This document shows, piece by piece, positions 1-6,000 of a stretch of DNA of 64,000 bases (the stretch's first letter is position 1; every line of letters starts with the position of its first letter). Origin of the DNA: a virus (taxonomy: Duplodnaviria; Heunggongvirae; Uroviricota; Caudoviricetes; Herelleviridae); IMG/VR virus record IMGVR_UViG_3300020128_000040; one strand, 5' to 3'. A program made the position numbers.

Positions 1-3000
1 ACACGCCTGAGGCGTATCCGAAGTACGACAACTACGACGCGATCAACGTCGACAAGGTCTACGACATTCCTGTCGATTATGATGGTGTGATGGGCGTGCC
101 GATCACGTTCCTCGATAAGTGGAACCCGGAACAGTTCGAGATTGTTGGTTATTCCCGCGGTATTCATTGCCCTGAGTCATTGAAGTTGTATGTAGGTCTG
201 GATCATAGTCAGCCGTATATCGACGGTAGGGCAAAGTACGACCGTCTTTTGATTAGGATGGTGAAGTAGATGCTTTTTCTTGGACTTCGATCGGCTAACA
301 GAATGATGCCGCCATGGTTGCTTTGTAATATCGGCAAGATTGTGTGTTGGTGCGCAGCTACTGACGGAGTTTTTGCTCTTTGGCGAGAAATCGGTTATCG
401 CAAAGACGGTACGACATATAGCGGTAATCAGCTTTTGGATAGAGTCAAGTCGTCTTCGTATTCTCAGCTGTATTCTTTTGCCGATGAGTACATGGATCTT
501 TATGAGCAGCGTAATCGTCTTATTCATGATCTCGTACTTGTTGTCGCGAGTGATGATCGAATAAAGACTGTACCGCCTCACACTAAGAGTGTTGATTTTG
601 ATATGGTCCGCGTTATGTCGCTTACGGAGCAATGGTTTTCACTCTTCAGACGCCTTACAGAGCTGACGCAAAATGCGAGCGTTGATGACGTTTGCGACCA
701 TTGGCCTTTTGATCGCGACGACAAAGAGGGGACCCCCGATCATGAAGATCACTGAAAAGAGGATCTCTATCCGCGACATCGTCGCGGGCTACGTCGACGA
801 CGGCGAGGGTGGCGTGCGGGGCTACAACGGTCTGCTCGACATCCGGCCGGCGTTCCAGCGCGAGTTCGTCTACAAGGATGCGCAGCGAGATGCTGTGCTG
901 GACACCGTGTCGAAGCAGCATCCGCTCAATGTCTTCTACTGGGCGGTGATCCATGAGGTCGACGACCAGGGCAACAGCACCGAGCGCTACGAGATCATAG
1001 ACGGCCAGCAGAGGACTGTGTCCATCTCGCAGTTCGCGAACGGCGACTTCTCGATCGCGGGGGTCTTCACGGCTGACGGCAACCACGAGGAGAAGAAGTT
1101 CCACACGCTCTCGCAGGCCGAGCGGGACAGGTTGCTCGACTACGAGCTCACGGTGTACCTGTGCGACGGCGACGAGGACGAGAAGCTCGCGTGGTTCCGC
1201 ACGATCAACATCGCCGGCGAGGAGCTCACGGCGCAGGAGCTGCGCAACGCGGTGTACGCGGGCCCGTGGCTGGCCGACGCGAAGCGGCTGTTTTCGCAGA
1301 CGCGCTGCTGGGCGGCGCGGCTCAATGACGACGGCGTGCTCGTGAAGGGTACGCCGATCCGACAGGAGCTGCTGGAGCGGGCTCTCGCTTGGACTGCGCG
1401 GTATGAGGGTAAGCCCAGCATCGAGGCGTACATGGCTGCACACCAGCATGACCACGATGCCTATGAGTTGAAGCGCTACTACGGTGATGTCATCGAGTGG
1501 GCGCGGGCGAAGTTCCCGCGGTACCGCAAGGAGATGGCAAGCGTCGACTGGGCGCGGCTCTTTGACGAGCATGGTATCCGCAGCGACCTTGACCCGGTTC
1601 AGCTGGAGGTGCGTGTTTCTACGCTCATGGCTGATGAGGACGTGACGAAGAAGCCGGGCGTCTACGAGTATGTGCTCACGGGCAAGGAGCGACTGTTGTC
1701 GATCCGGCAGTTCTCTGACCGCGACAAGCGTACCGCCTACGAGCGCCAGCAGGGCGTGTGCCCGGGCTGCGACGAGCACTTCGACATCTCCGCGATGCAG
1801 GGCGACCACATCGTGCCATGGAGCAAGGGCGGGCGGACGATGCCCGAGAACTGCCAGATGCTGTGCACCGAGTGCAACAGCGACAAGAGCGACGACTAAG
1901 GGGAGGAGCAAGCATGACCGACAACGAGCAGGGTGGGCGGCCGTCGGGGCCGCCTCCATCGAGCTTCAGATATGTCTCACCAGTCCCTGACGAGGTCGCG
2001 GTTCTGGCTCGTCCTGAGCCTCGAGACAGGTATTTTCCGTGGCTCATTGTGGGGCTCTTCTTCTGGCCCCTGCTGCTGGTGGCGGCAGAGTACTACTTCA
2101 AGGACCGCAGGTCTTACGAGCTCGCCATGGAGCAGTACCGCAGGGGCGTCGATCCCGGGTGGTACTGGCAGGGCCTTCGTATGCCGAACGACGATGCGTG
2201 ATGAGCACGAGAACAGATGACGACGAACAGAAAGAGGAAGCAATGACACAGGACGCAAGCCCCCAGGCCGGCATCGAGAACGGCCAGCCCACGAGCGGCC
2301 TGGACCGAGCTCTGGCTGTTCTGGACGGTCGCATCGCCGAGATGGAGACGGGCGTCGAGGAGCTCACGGCCTCCAACGCGGAGACGCTGCGTGAGCACGT
2401 GCGTCTCGGGGCCCGCAAGCGGGTGCTCGACATCGACCTGGCCATGCTGGGGTTCGACGTCGTCCTCCTGCGCAATCGGGTGCAGTATGCCCAGGAAGCT
2501 GTTGACCATGAGGCGCTGGCTGAGCGCGGCCGCGCCCTGGAGGAGTCGTTGCGGGCGGCGTCCCAGGAGAAGCACGACGTGCAGCAGGAGATGAACCGGC
2601 TGCTGGACGACCACGGCTCTGTGCGGCGCCAGGTCGAGCGGCTGCAGAGCGTGCTGGCGCTCCTGCGGGCCCAGCAGTACGACCTGGTGGTCTTCGGGGT
2701 GACTGTTGGCCTCGAGGATCTGGATGAGGAGACCCTCGTGTTTGTCGAGGAGGGCGCTGCGGAGGGCGTTGCGACTGAGGAAGGGGGCCAGTGATGCTTC
2801 TGACTGATGTAGTTGCGAATACTTATCACTATCATGTAGGACTTCTTTGTGCGTTGCATGGGCAGTATGTCGAGGGTCTTTTGCAAGATGTTGCTTTACT
2901 GTGCGAGAGGTCTTCGGCTAATAATGCTCGTGAGCGAGATTTACACCAGCAGCGTGATCCTAAGAAGCGGCGTAGGACGATTGAAGAGATGCGCGTTCTT

Positions 3001-6000
3001 TTGAGGCCATACATTCCTGAGTTAGATGCTTTATTTCTCAGGGTTGAGACGTTTACTGATTTGCGTAATAAGTATGCGCATGCCTATTTGGTGACGTCTT
3101 TTGGTCAGGCTGCTGTTCAGCATCTTCCTCACATGGATCATGCTGATAGGGGTAAGACTGTTTCCCTTGATACAGCTCTGTTGGAGTTGCTCAATGGTAT
3201 TGAGGTTTTTCGACCGATCATGGTGGCGATTCGTCAGATGCACGAGGCGGGTCTGCGTATGGCTGGTCCTGATACAGGGTTTCGTATTCCTGTGAATGGT
3301 GAAGGGTTGGATGACTGATGGCTGAGAAGCTCTTTCCGCAGCGGCAACGCTGCAAGAAGTGCAGCAAGGGCCTGGGGCTGAAGAGCACCGACCCCGTCTA
3401 CCTCGGGCTGTACTGCACGCCGAGGTGCGCAGGGATCGCAGTGCCGGCGACCAGGCCGCAGGACGCGCCGCGGGAGTGCACCACCGTGCGCGACGGCGCG
3501 GTCGTCTTTAAGCGCAAGTACCGGAGTGATTCCGAGGTGCCGGACAAGATCCTGCAGGACCCTTCGACTGGGCTCTATTGGTGCAGCCATTGTGCCCACA
3601 GGCACGTGGGTCACACCCGGATGGGAGAGGCTGAGAGCCTGCGGGTCTTCCGCTCGCCCGACGACCTGCGCGACCTGCTGGTCAAGCGGCGCGGGCAGGC
3701 GAGCGTCGCCCAGGTGGCCAAGGCCGCCGGCGTGCGGCCGATCCGGCTCAAGGAGCTGGAGGAGGGCGTGGCCCACCCCGAGGGGCTGGCGACGCTGTTC
3801 AAGGTGCTCGCTGTGCTCAGGGTCGACCTGGCCGGCTCGATCAGGCCGATGCGGTAGACGATTATCATCAGCCCCCAGTGCCACTTGTTGGTGCTGGGGG
3901 CTTCGTTGTGCATAGCACGACGAGGCGCGGGATGGTCGTCAAATACTTCACAGCCATGTATAGTAAATCCTGATAAACCAGTAAAAACAGAGAAAGGAAT
4001 CACCACCATGGGAATCTTGCAGACAGGCGGCGCGCTGCTTCTGGCGGGCATCATCTTCGTGGCCCTCCTCGTCGGGCTGATCGTGTTCGCGCTCTTCGCC
4101 AGGGCGTGGATCAAGGTCGCCCGCGCGGACGAGGCCCTCGTCATCTCGGGCAACCGGGCCCGCGACGGGGAGTCGGCCGTGACGGTCATCGTCAACGGTA
4201 AGGCCGTGGTCAACCCGATCAGCCAGCGCCACGAGGTCATCTCGCTGCGCTCGCGGCAGGTGACGCTCAACGCAGAGGCGCAGTCGTTCGACAACGTCAC
4301 GCTGAATGTCGAGGGCGTGGCCATCGTCAAGATCGGCAGCTCCCCGGACCACGTGCGCCGGGCGGCCGAGCGCTTCGCCTCCCAGGACAAGGCCATCGAG
4401 CAGTTCACCACCGAGCAGCTGGAGGGCGCGCTGCGCGGCATCGTCGCGACGCTGACCGTGGTCGACCTCATGCGCGAGCGCAAGAAGTTCTCCGACCAGA
4501 TCTCCTCCGACGTCTCGGGCGAGCTCGCGGAGCAGGGCCTGATCCTGGACTCCTTCCAGATCAAGGGCATCACCGACAAGGCCGGGTACATCAGCTCGCT
4601 GGGCACCCCCGAGATTGAGGCTAAGCGTCAGAGCGCGGAGATCGCCCAGACCAACGCAGAGCGCGCGATCGCCAAGGAGAAGTTCGCCAACGAGGAGAAG
4701 AACCTCGTCGAGCAGACCGCGCTGGACACCAACACCGCCAACTCGGCCGCAGAGGTGGGCAAGGCCCGCGCCAGCGCCGAGCAGGCTGAAGCGCTGGCCC
4801 GCGCAGAGGCGGAGCAGCGCGTGCTGCAGCAGCGCGCCGAGAACCGCCAGGCGGAGCTGGACGCCGACGTCAAGCGCGTGGCCGACGCCGAGAAGTACCG
4901 CCGCCAGCAGGTAGCGGAGGCTGATGCTTTTGAGCGCCGCAGCAAGGCCGAGGCCGATGCCGCCGTGGCCGAGCAGGAGGCCCAGGCCGTCAAGGTGCGC
5001 GCCCAGGCTGAAGCAGATGCTGTGCGCCTGGCCGGCGAGGCCCGCGCAGCAGCGATCAAGGCCGAGGCCGAGGCCCTCAAGGAGAACCAGGACGCGCTCC
5101 TGGCCCAGCGGGCCCTCGAGCAGCTGCCGGCCCTCATGGCCGAGTTCGCCAAGGGCTACGAGCGGGTCGGCTCCATCACCGTGGTGGGCGGCGCAGGGTC
5201 CGCCAGCGACCAGATCGCGGGCGAGCCCGCCCTCGCGCTGACCAGCGTGCTCGCCAGCGTCAAGGCGGCCACCGGGGTCGACCTCGCGGAGGTCATCCAG
5301 GGCCGGGCCGTTGACCAGGGCATCAGGCAGGCTGTCAGCCAGAGCGTGTCGCAGGGGGGGCGGCGCGGCCGATGTCCTCTCGGCCATCGCGAAGGAGGGC
5401 GCCGCTGCTGGCGCCGGCATCCAGATGATGCGTTCGACCCACTCGCCCGAGAGCGGCGCCATCGGGCAGGCCCCCGCCGAGGAGGCGACCAGCCAGGAGG
5501 CCTGAGTCATGTAGCGGGAGCCGGGGTGGCAAGCTGTCGCCCCGGCTCTGCTGCGTGTATAGTTAGTCCTGGTAAACAAGCAGAAACGATCACTATCACC
5601 ACAGGAGGAGCGCATGGGGACTAGCGCGGCACGACAGGCGGCCCTCTCGGGTCTTGACCCGGAGCAGAGAGCCGCCGTCTCGTCCACGGCCCACCGCCTG
5701 CTCGTGGTGGCAGGCGCCGGCTCGGGCAAGACTCGGGTCTTCACCCACCGCATCGCCAGGCTGGTGGCCGACGGCGCCGACCCGGCGTCGATCCTCGCGC
5801 TGTCCTACACCAAGGCTGCTGCTGATGAGGTCTCCGAGCGGCTGGCCGCGATGGGCGTCCAGGGGGTGCAGGCCATGACCCTGCACGCCTGGTGCCACCG
5901 CGAGCCGCTGCGCCGCTACTCCCACCTCATCGGCAAGGAGGGCTACCGCATCATGGACGCCGAGGGCTCCGAGGACGTCCTGCGCTACGAGATGCGGCTG

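What the first reader, a model, noticed from the sequence alone, without database searches (positions are those of the whole stretch)
1..3318. Mosaic defence islet with two sharply low-GC insertions fused in-frame to high-GC neighbours
Segments 1-740 (MTase fragment + 161-aa ORF) and 2794-3318 (HEPN-like Rx4H protein) are ~42-45% GC inside ~70% GC DNA. Both still share overlapping stop/start codons (TAGATG, TGATG) with the adjacent high-GC genes. A DUF262(DGQQR)+HNH GmrSD-like nuclease sits between them. This suggests recent acquisition of foreign restriction/abortive-infection cargo that has been stitched into a polycistronic unit.
Basis: seen in the sequence. Interest (0 to 1): 0.55.

Follow-up and report, generated by a model that had tools for sequence, protein, structure and literature searches.

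The report
Low-GC cargo genes in a restriction operon
Two small genes with foreign-looking, T-ending codon usage sit inside a restriction-modification operon on a high-GC conjugative plasmid; this is a fairly ordinary defence-island mosaic, of interest mainly because the methylase-nuclease junction turns out to be a recurrent docking site for toxin-like genes.

Summary
The window has only two large low-GC blocks: 1-740 (47.4% GC) and 2794-3318 (47.0%), in 70% GC DNA. Both blocks are fully open reading frames. Their codon adaptation index is 0.16, against a host-like minimum of 0.47, and third positions are T-rich and C-poor.

The context is one operon on a ~142-kb actinobacterial conjugative plasmid:
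- EcoRI-family methylase (M)
- orf161
- ParB/DUF262+HNH nuclease (R)
- 95-aa membrane protein
- 197-aa coiled-coil protein
- orf174
- orf179, a plasmid backbone gene

The nuclease is the R partner of a pan-bacterial M>R cassette, not a Type IV GmrSD enzyme. M lies upstream in all 78 loci that have upstream sequence.

The M-R junction is a recurrent cargo slot. About 10% of loci carry HEPN, TIR, Fic, ParE, RhuM, ORF6N or T5orf172 genes there. orf161, a strict ORFan, occupies this slot.

orf174 belongs to a five-member family with an invariant RxKYAH (Rx4H) motif. One relative sits in the M-R slot elsewhere. A HEPN fold is plausible but unproven.

"Foreign cargo in a polycistronic unit" is supported. 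"Recent" is untested, and the closest orf174 homolog is in Corynebacterium, not outside Actinobacteria. Verdict: a new member of a known kind, of moderate-low interest.

The parts
1..269 (+). 3' end (last 88 codons) of a 343-aa EcoRI-family N6-adenine DNA methyltransferase (M). The full gene is at L001 8497-9528. From about window 138 its codons turn T3-rich and low in GC3.
   Evidence: Pfam EcoRI_methylase 1.6e-27 and PADLOC MTase_II 7.4e-30. Full-length gene on the 142-kb contigs. GC3 profile. CAI of the tail is 0.21.
270..755 (+). orf161: low-GC (46%) ORFan occupying the methylase-nuclease junction slot. It contains RNRLIH (R81-H86), starts directly after the methylase TAG in the same frame, and its stop overlaps the nuclease start by 14 nt.
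   Evidence: Fully open frame, 2/5000 shuffles. T3 0.43 and CAI 0.16. No homolog in 5.8e9 proteins, plasmids, phages, metagenome or viral contigs. No Pfam, PADLOC, NCBIfam or PHROG hit. AF2 single-sequence model unusable, pLDDT 43.
742..1899 (+). 385-aa ParB/DUF262 (DGQQR) + HNH endonuclease, the R partner of the methylase. It is host-like in GC3 (0.67-1.0).
   Evidence: Pfam GmrSD_N 2.3e-20 plus HNH 1.5e-14, with no DUF1524. PADLOC REase_II PDLC03418 at 4.9e-135 over the full length. More than 8000 homologs. The methylase is upstream and co-oriented in 78/78 loci that have upstream sequence. Start at 742 is supported by invariant M1 in alignment A2.
1914..2201 (+). 95-aa predicted membrane protein (TM95), preceded by a GGAGG ribosome-binding site. 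Its stop overlaps the next start (TGATG).
   Evidence: Sequence and translation. No family hits except a weak PHROG match. No homolog in related loci.
2201..2794 (+). 197-aa coiled-coil protein (CC197), host-like in GC3. Its stop overlaps the orf174 start (TGATG).
   Evidence: Only weak coiled-coil family hits. No homolog in plasmids or related loci.
2794..3318 (+). orf174: low-GC (47%) gene of a five-member family with an invariant R91-x-K-Y-A-H96 (Rx4H) motif plus ERS and QQRD motifs. It is a candidate HEPN-like RNase or toxin. It is bounded exactly by TGATG overlaps on both sides and has 4 TTA codons.
3318..3857 (+). orf179: Cys-rich N-terminus plus weak HTH_3. This is a plasmid backbone gene, host-like in GC, and the last gene of the unit.
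   Evidence: 55% identity over 88 aa (E 5e-31) to a hypothetical protein next to topoisomerase III on the Streptomyces sp. NBC_01454 plasmid, with no CC197 or orf174 there. Weak Pfam HTH_3 hit.
3870..3902 (+). 14-bp-arm G+C-rich hairpin after orf179, the likely end of the transcription unit. A promoter-like site for the next gene follows at 3936-3964.
   Evidence: Inverted repeat I14. Promoter-like site. Sequence.

Best explanation
The region is the distal part of an accessory defence operon on a ~142-kb conjugative plasmid of a high-GC actinobacterium.

Core of the operon. The core is a widely travelled two-gene restriction-modification cassette. An EcoRI-family adenine methylase is followed by, and translationally coupled to, a ParB/DUF262+HNH endonuclease.

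The two cargo genes. Two small genes have been added to the same polycistronic unit. Their codon usage is foreign to the plasmid: 46-47% GC, T-ending codons and CAI 0.16.
- orf161 sits in the methylase-nuclease junction. Across the cassette family this junction is a recurrent slot for toxin or abortive-infection genes.
- orf174 sits three genes downstream, wedged by 1-nt TGATG overlaps between a coiled-coil gene and the plasmid backbone gene orf179.

Shown:
- the composition of the two blocks;
- the coding status of both ORFs;
- the operon junctions;
- the strict M>R linkage;
- the variability of the slot across related loci;
- the orf174 family and its invariant Rx4H motif.

Inferred:
- orf174, and more tentatively orf161, is a HEPN-type metal-independent RNase.
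- It acts as a second line of defence in the manner of PrrC with EcoprrI. It would be kept latent while the R-M proteins or a co-encoded partner are intact, and released to cut RNA and arrest the cell when a phage disables restriction.
- Start/stop coupling would keep cargo expression slaved to the operon.
- The rare codons, including four TTA, would keep the toxin level low.
For: Element identity:
- Near-identical 142.0-142.2-kb contigs occur in several metagenomes.
- The window encodes a MobL relaxase, a type IV coupling protein and topoisomerase III. The nearest relaxase is on a Streptomyces plasmid at 51% identity.

R-M core:
- The order M>R holds in 78/78 loci with upstream sequence.

Foreign composition and coding status:
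-.

The slot:
- Ten loci have inserts of 480-3608 nt between M and R.
- These carry HEPN (PF05168), ParE+Phd, Fic, RhuM, ORF6N, T5orf172/SNIPE, DUF2130, DUF6261 and an orf174-family gene.
- L101 has a low-GC CAP12-type TIR gene overlapping the nuclease start by 1 nt.
- The nearest nuclease relatives, L012 (72%) and L099 (61%), have no insert.

orf174 family:
- Members and invariant RxKYAH motif.
- One member lies in the M-R slot of L016.

orf179 as backbone:
-.

Literature (PMC3710099):
- At least 16 HEPN clades are linked to R-M systems.
- The motif definition is Rx4-6H with a polar residue after R.
- PrrC-EcoprrI is the functional paradigm.
Against: - orf161 has no homolog, so its RNRLIH motif has no conservation support. 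Its similarity to orf174 is not significant (hhalign E 0.58).
- No antitoxin or sensor partner is identified.
- TM95, CC197 and orf161 are ORFans, so co-function cannot be tested by co-occurrence.
- Only 1 of 4 orf174 homologs is next to an R-M system.
- No variant of the plasmid lacking the cargo was found, and there are no flanking repeats. The insertion events themselves are therefore inferred, not observed.
Confidence: 0.6

Rival explanations
1. Persistent, selected low GC rather than a relic of recent transfer. The T-ending, C-poor, TTA-containing codon usage of orf174 (and of slot cargo generally) would be maintained by selection. Possible purposes are to throttle translation of a toxic protein, to make it depend on a rare tRNA, or to attract an AT-binding xenogeneic silencer such as Lsr2. 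On this view the genes may be long-term residents.
For: - The orf174-family gene is 10-23 GC points below its flanks in 5/5 contexts. T3 is the commonest or co-commonest third base and C3 is low. Yet the proteins are only 36-47% identical, so synonymous sites should be long saturated.
- Only 4 homologs exist among 1.84e9 representatives, and none sits in a background of matching composition.
- Slot cargo in two other high-GC loci is also low-GC and T3-rich: L013, 73 aa, T3 0.49; L101, TIR gene, T3 0.41.
- orf174 has 4 TTA codons, versus 0.46 per 1000 in host-like ORFs.
Against: - Mobile and defence genes are generally AT-richer than their hosts, so repeated recent transfer explains the same pattern.
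- The sample is five genes.
- No evidence on expression, Lsr2 binding or tRNA dependence is available.
- Family GC tracks host GC loosely (0.38, 0.41, 0.46, 0.47, 0.56-0.58), as ordinary partial amelioration would predict.
Confidence: 0.25
2. Sub-genic recombination between diverged copies of the same R-M cassette. On this view, block 1 (methylase codons ~181 or ~301 onward plus orf161) was imported in one piece from a lower-GC M-cargo-R cassette. Crossovers would have occurred in the conserved methylase motif region and at the conserved nuclease 5' end. orf161 would not have been inserted on its own.
For: - The GC3 drop begins inside the methylase, at the conserved ...VPITFLDKWNPEQFEI motif (window ~138), and ends at the nuclease start.
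- The low-GC3 methylase segments (codons 181-260 and 301-343) include family-variable regions.
- Donor-like elements with G3/T3-rich codon usage and cargo in the slot exist, for example L011.
- One assembly has a 28-bp deletion exactly at this boundary.
Against: - The correlation between conservation and GC3 is weak (r 0.17). The variable segment at codons 81-120 has GC3 of 0.85-0.90.
- A T3-rich methylase tail is also seen in L100, which has no cargo. The tail's composition may therefore be a family trait.
- No donor sequence was found.
- This rival concerns the route of acquisition and is compatible with the main explanation.
Confidence: 0.3
3. Strand-specific C-to-T hypermutation. Formerly high-GC resident genes would have been converted by a single-strand DNA cytosine deaminase or by transcription-associated deamination, turning C-ending codons into T-ending ones.
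For: - The coding strand of both blocks is C-poor and T-rich. GC skew is +0.2 to +0.3 and AT skew is -0.15 to -0.3.
- In orf174, C3 is 0.08 and T3 is 0.49, while G3 stays at 0.34.
Against: - C at codon positions 1 and 2 is normal: 0.25-0.27 and 0.19-0.20, as in the neighbours.
- The edges of block 2 coincide exactly with the start and stop codons.
- A3 is also raised, and TTA and TTG codons appear.
- Homologs in unrelated hosts show the same bias.
- The frames are intact.
Confidence: 0.04
4. The low-GC stretches are not genes. They would be assembly chimeras, spacers or regulatory AT-rich DNA that happen to be open.
For: - Most gene callers skipped both ORFs on the 142-kb contigs.
- orf161 has no homolog.
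Against: - The sequence is identical in at least 10 independent assemblies from JGI, ENA and Logan.
- Both blocks are open in one frame end to end (p about 2-4e-4), with coding-type position periodicity and coupled starts and stops.
- orf174 has four homologs with E down to 1e-38.
- There is no Rfam hit.
Confidence: 0.03

Closest known systems
prr locus of E. coli: Type Ic R-M system EcoprrI with the embedded anticodon nuclease PrrC (HEPN RNase)
   Same: - A small RNase-type toxin gene is embedded inside an R-M operon.
- The proposed logic is the same: a latent suicide effector backs up restriction (PMC3710099).
- orf161 lies between M and R, and an orf174 relative does so in L016.
   Different: - PrrC carries an N-terminal ABC-ATPase domain and a demonstrated HEPN active site. 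orf161 and orf174 are 161 and 174 aa with no ATPase domain, and their HEPN status is unproven.
- The R-M partner here is a two-gene Type II-like cassette, not Type I.
[quoted passage not shown] 2013, PMC3710099, Table 1)
   Same: - The same kind of neighbour, a ParB+HNH nuclease.
- The same kind of motif: RN...H, i.e. Rx4H with a polar residue after R.
- The same operonic embedding.
   Different: - No Pfam Abi_2 or other HEPN model matches orf161 or orf174, even at E up to 10.
- The orf174 family has only 5 members, with its own extra invariant motifs (ERS, QQRD, PH).
GmrSD / BrxU Type IV modification-dependent nucleases (DUF262+DUF1524)
   Same: - An N-terminal DUF262/ParB domain with DGQQR.
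- A C-terminal His-Me finger nuclease.
   Different: - The C-terminal domain is PF01844 HNH, not DUF1524.
- A cognate methylase is always encoded immediately upstream.
- The protein matches a Type II nuclease model over its full length.
- It therefore most likely cuts unmodified rather than modified DNA. This last point is inference.
Defence islands and variable cargo hotspots (for example hotspots in P2/P4 elements, and genes embedded in Type I hsd operons such as RhuM, Fic/Doc and Abi genes)
   Same: - A fixed pair of flanking genes with rapidly changing defence or toxin cargo between them.
- The cast found here (RhuM, Fic, HEPN, ParE, TIR, ORF6N) matches what PMC3710099 lists around R-M/PrrC loci.
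   Different: - The slot here is the junction of a two-gene Type II-like cassette.
- The cargo is usually translationally coupled to the nuclease start: overlap or a gap of 10 nt or less in most cases.
HEPN-MNT type II toxin-antitoxin modules
   Same: - A small helical protein with Rx4H.
- HEPN toxins of this class (5yep, 7ae2, 8xdj, 6m6u) appear among the weak structural neighbours.
   Different: - No nucleotidyltransferase (MNT) partner lies next to orf161 or orf174.
- The structural matches are not significant.

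Membership tests
HEPN superfamily (orf174) | Conserved Rx4-6H motif with a polar residue (N/D/H) right after R | tested here: met
   R91 and H96 of the R91-x-K-Y-A-H96 motif are invariant in all 5 family members. The residue after R is N or D. Motif definition from PMC3710099.
HEPN superfamily (orf174) | All-alpha up-down helical bundle fold superposable on solved HEPN domains | tested here: inconclusive
HEPN superfamily (orf174) | Significant sequence-profile match to a described HEPN family | tested here: not met
   No Pfam hit for any of the 5 members at E up to 10. No PADLOC, NCBIfam or PHROG hit. A profile search against PDB sequences found only designed repeats. hhalign against a PF05168 member gave E 0.64. 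HHpred against full libraries could not be run.
HEPN superfamily (orf174) | Second conserved acidic residue upstream of the motif (typically Ex3[KR]) | tested here: inconclusive
   An invariant E38 (in ERS) lies in the first long helix, but the Ex3[KR] spacing is not present.
HEPN superfamily (orf174) | Metal-independent RNase activity dependent on the R and H residues | not testable with these tools
   Needs biochemistry.
HEPN superfamily (orf161) | Conserved Rx4-6H motif and HEPN fold | tested here: inconclusive
   RNRLIH is present, but the protein is an ORFan, so conservation cannot be assessed. The AF2 model has pLDDT 43. hhalign against the orf174 family gave E 0.58, although it aligns RN..H plus a downstream PH.
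GmrSD Type IV restriction enzymes (nuclease 742-1899) | N-terminal DUF262/GmrSD_N with DGQQR | tested here: met
   Pfam GmrSD_N 2.3e-20. IDGQQRT is in the sequence.
GmrSD Type IV restriction enzymes (nuclease 742-1899) | C-terminal DUF1524 (GmrD) nuclease domain | tested here: not met
   Only PF01844 HNH and HNH_5 match the C-terminus.
GmrSD Type IV restriction enzymes (nuclease 742-1899) | Stand-alone, modification-dependent enzyme without a cognate methylase | tested here: not met
   An EcoRI-family methylase lies immediately upstream and co-oriented in 78/78 loci with upstream sequence. Modification dependence itself is not testable here.
Type II restriction-modification system (M + R cassette) | Adjacent co-oriented methylase and nuclease genes matching REBASE-derived Type II models | tested here: met
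   PADLOC MTase_II 7.4e-30 and REase_II PDLC03418 4.9e-135 over positions 1-384 of 385. Linkage survey.
Type II restriction-modification system (M + R cassette) | Site-specific cleavage blocked by the cognate methylation | not testable with these tools
   Needs methylome sequencing and digestion assays.
PrrC/RloC-type anticodon nucleases | N-terminal ABC-ATPase fused to the HEPN domain | tested here: not met
   orf161 and orf174 are 161 and 174 aa with no ATPase domain.
HEPN-MNT toxin-antitoxin | Adjacent minimal nucleotidyltransferase antitoxin | tested here: not met
   Pfam shows no NTase domain in any neighbour within 1-3857.

The most novel reading that the evidence does not exclude
The methylase-nuclease junction of this pan-bacterial ParB/HNH R-M cassette would be a dedicated, translationally coupled docking slot. 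Abortive-infection effectors (HEPN, TIR, Fic, ParE, RhuM and others) would be exchanged there, so that effector synthesis is slaved to the R-M operon. orf161 and orf174 would be two previously undescribed, distantly related HEPN-like RNases sharing RNxxxH-x16-PH. Their T-ending, C-poor, TTA-containing coding would be actively maintained for translational throttling or silencer recruitment, rather than being a transient trace of transfer.
Probability: 0.15. Interest if true: 0.6.

Novelty: new member of a known kind. Interest (0 to 1): 0.35.

Why it matters
If the inference is right, the operon adds two uncharacterised toxin-type genes to the catalogue of backup effectors that ride inside restriction-modification operons. 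One of them defines a five-member family with an invariant Rx4H motif.

The survey also shows that a very common two-gene R-M cassette has a preferred cargo slot. That slot could be mined systematically for new defence genes.

There is a practical point as well. Standard gene callers skipped both ORFs on most copies of the plasmid because of their deviant codon usage. Genes of this kind are therefore under-represented in protein databases.

None of this overturns current views. HEPN-R-M linkage, AT-rich cargo in GC-rich replicons, and defence islands are all established.

Tried and rejected
- DNA similarity of window 1-8000 to plasmids and phages (megablast): no match.
- Word-indexed protein searches for orf161 and orf174: self only.
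  - The exhaustive HMMER search then found 4 orf174 homologs, so the first negative was a sensitivity limit.
- tblastn of orf161 and orf174 against plasmids and phages: nothing significant.
- Pattern plus tblastn scans of metagenome and viral contigs for orf161 and for the orf174 family: nothing.
- orf161 and orf174 as paralogs:
  - BLASTP found nothing.
  - hhalign gave E 0.58, with only a motif-level resemblance.
- orf174 plus orf179 as a conserved pair: rejected.
  - The gene after the Corynebacterium homolog is unrelated (E 15).
  - orf179 is a backbone gene found without orf174 on a Streptomyces plasmid.
- Mobile-element hallmarks around the blocks: no convincing terminal inverted or direct repeats. 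The 12-nt inverted repeat I15 is at chance level.
- Non-coding RNA: no Rfam family at gathering score in the window or L001.
- 'Variable protein segments equal low GC3' as a general rule: only weakly true (r 0.17), with a clear counter-example.
- Fold search of orf161: not attempted, because the model was unusable.
- The AlphaFold-database Foldseek library was unavailable.
- C-to-T hypermutation: considered and rejected, because codon positions 1 and 2 are unaffected.

Full report

Yes. A 200-nt sliding profile shows GC of 0.42-0.52 over window 1-800 and 0.44-0.52 over 2700-3300, against 0.60-0.79 elsewhere. Exact values are 47.4% for 1-740, 47.0% for 2794-3318, 64.2% for 741-2793, 69.0% for orf179 and 70.0% for the whole window. 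A 150-nt scan finds no other large block below 55% GC in the 64 kb.

It fails to refute.
- orf161 third positions are T 0.43, G 0.25, C 0.19, A 0.14.
- orf174 third positions are T 0.49, G 0.34, C 0.08, A 0.09.
- Neighbouring genes have G3+C3 of 0.75-0.94.
- CAI computed against the window's own host-like ORFs is 0.16 for both ORFs. The host minimum is 0.47 and the median 0.73.

Both blocks are open in exactly one frame from end to end (2/5000 and 1/5000 shuffles), with normal coding periodicity at positions 1 and 2.

**2. Anatomy**

All junctions below are read.
- The window starts inside a methylase gene that ends at TAG 267-269.
- orf161 starts at the next base (ATG 270), in the same frame as the methylase. 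It ends at 755, overlapping the nuclease ATG (742) by 14 nt.
- The nuclease ends at 1899.
- After a 14-nt spacer with GGAGG comes a 95-aa membrane protein (1914-2201).
- Then follow a 197-aa coiled-coil protein (2201-2794), orf174 (2794-3318) and orf179 (3318-3857). These are joined by three identical TGATG 1-nt overlaps.
- A 14-bp-arm hairpin follows at 3870-3902, then a promoter-like site for the next gene.

The left edge of block 1 is not a gene boundary.
- On the full gene (L001 8497-9528), GC3 is 0.83-1.0 for methylase codons 1-180.
- It is patchy (0.50-0.77) for codons 181-300.
- It is 0.43 from codon ~301, which is window ~138.

The edges of block 2 coincide exactly with orf174's start and stop.

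**3. What the element is**

The nuclease protein occurs on 15 contigs. Most are 142.0-142.2 kb, come from JGI, ENA and Logan assemblies, and are 100% identical to the window over 8 kb.

The window encodes a MobL relaxase, a type IV coupling protein, a lysozyme and topoisomerase III. A D5-type primase lies upstream. The nearest relaxases are on Streptomyces (51%), Gordonia and Rhodococcus plasmids.

It is a conjugative plasmid of a high-GC actinobacterium.

Most gene callers skipped both low-GC ORFs.

**4. The R-M core**

- The methylase is EcoRI-family (Pfam 1.6e-27; PADLOC MTase_II 7.4e-30).
- The nuclease is GmrSD_N + HNH. It matches the PADLOC Type II nuclease model PDLC03418 over its whole length at 4.9e-135.
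- The nuclease family is huge and pan-bacterial: more than 8000 hits, and 80 genome loci from most phyla at about 50% identity.
- In a tblastn survey of 84 loci, the methylase lies upstream and co-oriented in all 78 loci that have upstream sequence.

This is therefore a classical M>R cassette. It is not a stand-alone Type IV GmrSD enzyme, and it also lacks DUF1524.

The M gene is lower in GC than the R gene, and lower than the locus, almost everywhere. The low GC of the methylase fragment is thus partly a family trait, not separate cargo.

**5. The junction is a cargo slot**

None of the 80 genome loci carries a homolog of orf161, TM95, CC197, orf174 or orf179.

In most loci M abuts or overlaps R. 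This includes close relatives of the window's nuclease: L012 (72%, 14-nt overlap), L099 (61%, 4-nt overlap) and L100 (50-nt spacer).

Ten loci have inserts of 480-3608 nt in the M-R gap.

| Locus | Cargo in the M-R gap |
|---|---|
| L024 | HEPN (PF05168) |
| L020 | Phd+ParE |
| L071 | Fic |
| L050 | RhuM plus a 149-aa ORF |
| L062 | ORF6N |
| L019 | DUF2130 + T5orf172 |
| L011 | SNIPE/T5orf172 plus two unknown genes |
| L085 | DUF6261 |
| L013 | 73-aa Cys-rich ORF plus a duplicated nuclease 5' end |
| L016 | an orf174-family gene |

L101 is a 60% GC element with topoisomerase III. It has a low-GC (0.48), T3-rich (0.41) CAP12-type TIR gene whose stop overlaps the nuclease start by 1 nt.

In most of these loci the cargo's stop overlaps or lies within about 10 nt of the nuclease start.

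orf161 is therefore one more occupant of a recurrent, translationally coupled slot. In three independent high-GC loci (the window, L013 and L101) the occupant is low-GC and T3-rich.

**6. orf174**

The word-indexed search found only self. The exhaustive HMMER search found four homologs at 36-47% identity, with E from 1.5e-38 to 8e-22.

The alignment has an invariant R91-x-K-Y-A-H96-A motif, plus ERS, QQRD and PH motifs.

Contexts of the homologs:
- the Corynebacterium suranareeae chromosome, in a region of small hypothetical genes;
- between M and R of the same cassette family, in L016;
- two short contigs.

The gene is 10-23 GC points below its flanks in all five contexts.

Structure and profile evidence:
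- AF2 with the five-sequence alignment gives pLDDT 80.6: long helices, with a beta-hairpin after the motif.
- Foldseek, Pfam and PDB-profile searches are negative.

The motif fits the published HEPN definition. Membership is plausible but not demonstrated.

orf179 downstream is a backbone gene. It is 55% identical to a gene next to topoisomerase III on a Streptomyces plasmid that lacks orf174. It is unrelated to the gene after the Corynebacterium homolog. orf174 is therefore independent cargo.

**7. orf161**

orf161 is a strict ORFan in every search and has no usable model.

It contains RNRLIH. hhalign against the orf174 family is not significant (E 0.58). Its only alignment does, however, pair RN..H and a PH dipeptide 16-17 residues downstream, both at positions that are invariant in orf174. 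This is a lead, not evidence.

**8. Mechanism**

Shown:
- a coupled operon;
- foreign composition;
- the slot;
- a conserved Rx4H family.

Inferred, from the PrrC-EcoprrI paradigm and the documented linkage of at least 16 HEPN clades, including ones next to ParB+HNH proteins, with R-M systems:
- The cargo proteins are latent RNase-type toxins that back up restriction.
- Rare codons may keep their level low. orf174 has four TTA codons, 23 per 1000, against 0.46 per 1000 in host-like ORFs.

Rivals:
- selected or persistent low GC;
- import of block 1 by recombination within the cassette;
- C-to-T hypermutation, disfavoured because positions 1 and 2 are normal;
- non-coding DNA or assembly artefact, disfavoured.

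**9. Novelty and verdict**

The phenomenon is known in kind: AT-rich defence cargo in a GC-rich replicon, and HEPN-like genes inside R-M operons.

New here:
- a five-member Rx4H family;
- an ORFan;
- the demonstration that this particular very common M>R cassette has a cargo slot.

'Recent acquisition' and 'donor outside Actinobacteria' are not supported. Interest is moderate-low.

Noticed in passing
L001 4250-5130 (same plasmid, about 4-5 kb upstream of the window start): A third low-GC stretch (0.46-0.57; G>C, T>A) of about 900 bp with no ORF over 82 aa. It lies just upstream of the D5_N/DUF5906 primase-helicase gene and may be the replication origin. No Rfam family matches it.
   Followed up: partly
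window 42032-47578 (+): A 1849-aa protein whose only Pfam hit is a weak RNA_pol_Rpb1_2 (double-psi beta-barrel) match, E 1.5e-5, at residues 1345-1413. This could be a plasmid-borne RNA-polymerase-like giant protein.
   Followed up: no
window 4009-7143 (+): An SPFH/flotillin gene overlaps a UvrD-like helicase gene. The helicase scores 3e-86 on PADLOC GajB models, but no GajA-type partner is adjacent.
   Followed up: no
L013 3421-5520 and L016 4869-5987: In L013 the EcoRI-family methylase is interrupted by a ~360-aa intein. In L016 a free-standing homolog of that intein (Hint plus a faint LAGLIDADG hit) sits right after the nuclease. L013 also has a duplicated nuclease 5' end in the M-R gap.
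   Followed up: partly
window 126-153 (L002, assembly of SRR7990742): One assembly of the otherwise identical plasmid lacks 28 bp exactly where methylase GC3 drops. This frameshifts the methylase tail, giving 305 aa instead of 343. It could be a real variant or an assembly error.
   Followed up: partly
window 267-272: The methylase and orf161 are in the same reading frame, separated only by one TAG codon. Readthrough or a point mutation would give a 505-aa methylase-orf161 fusion. The same frame is expected one time in three by chance.
   Followed up: no
78 loci of the M>R cassette family (L011-L097): The methylase gene is systematically lower in GC than the adjacent nuclease gene and than the surrounding locus. 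Examples: L026, 0.34 vs 0.52 vs 0.50; L083, 0.43 vs 0.53 vs 0.59.
   Followed up: partly
window 177-632 (-) and 2098-2886 (-): Long antisense ORFs (151 and 262 aa) overlap the low-GC blocks. The first is explained by T-ending sense codons, whose antisense ANN codons cannot be stops. They are not evidence of genes.
   Followed up: yes
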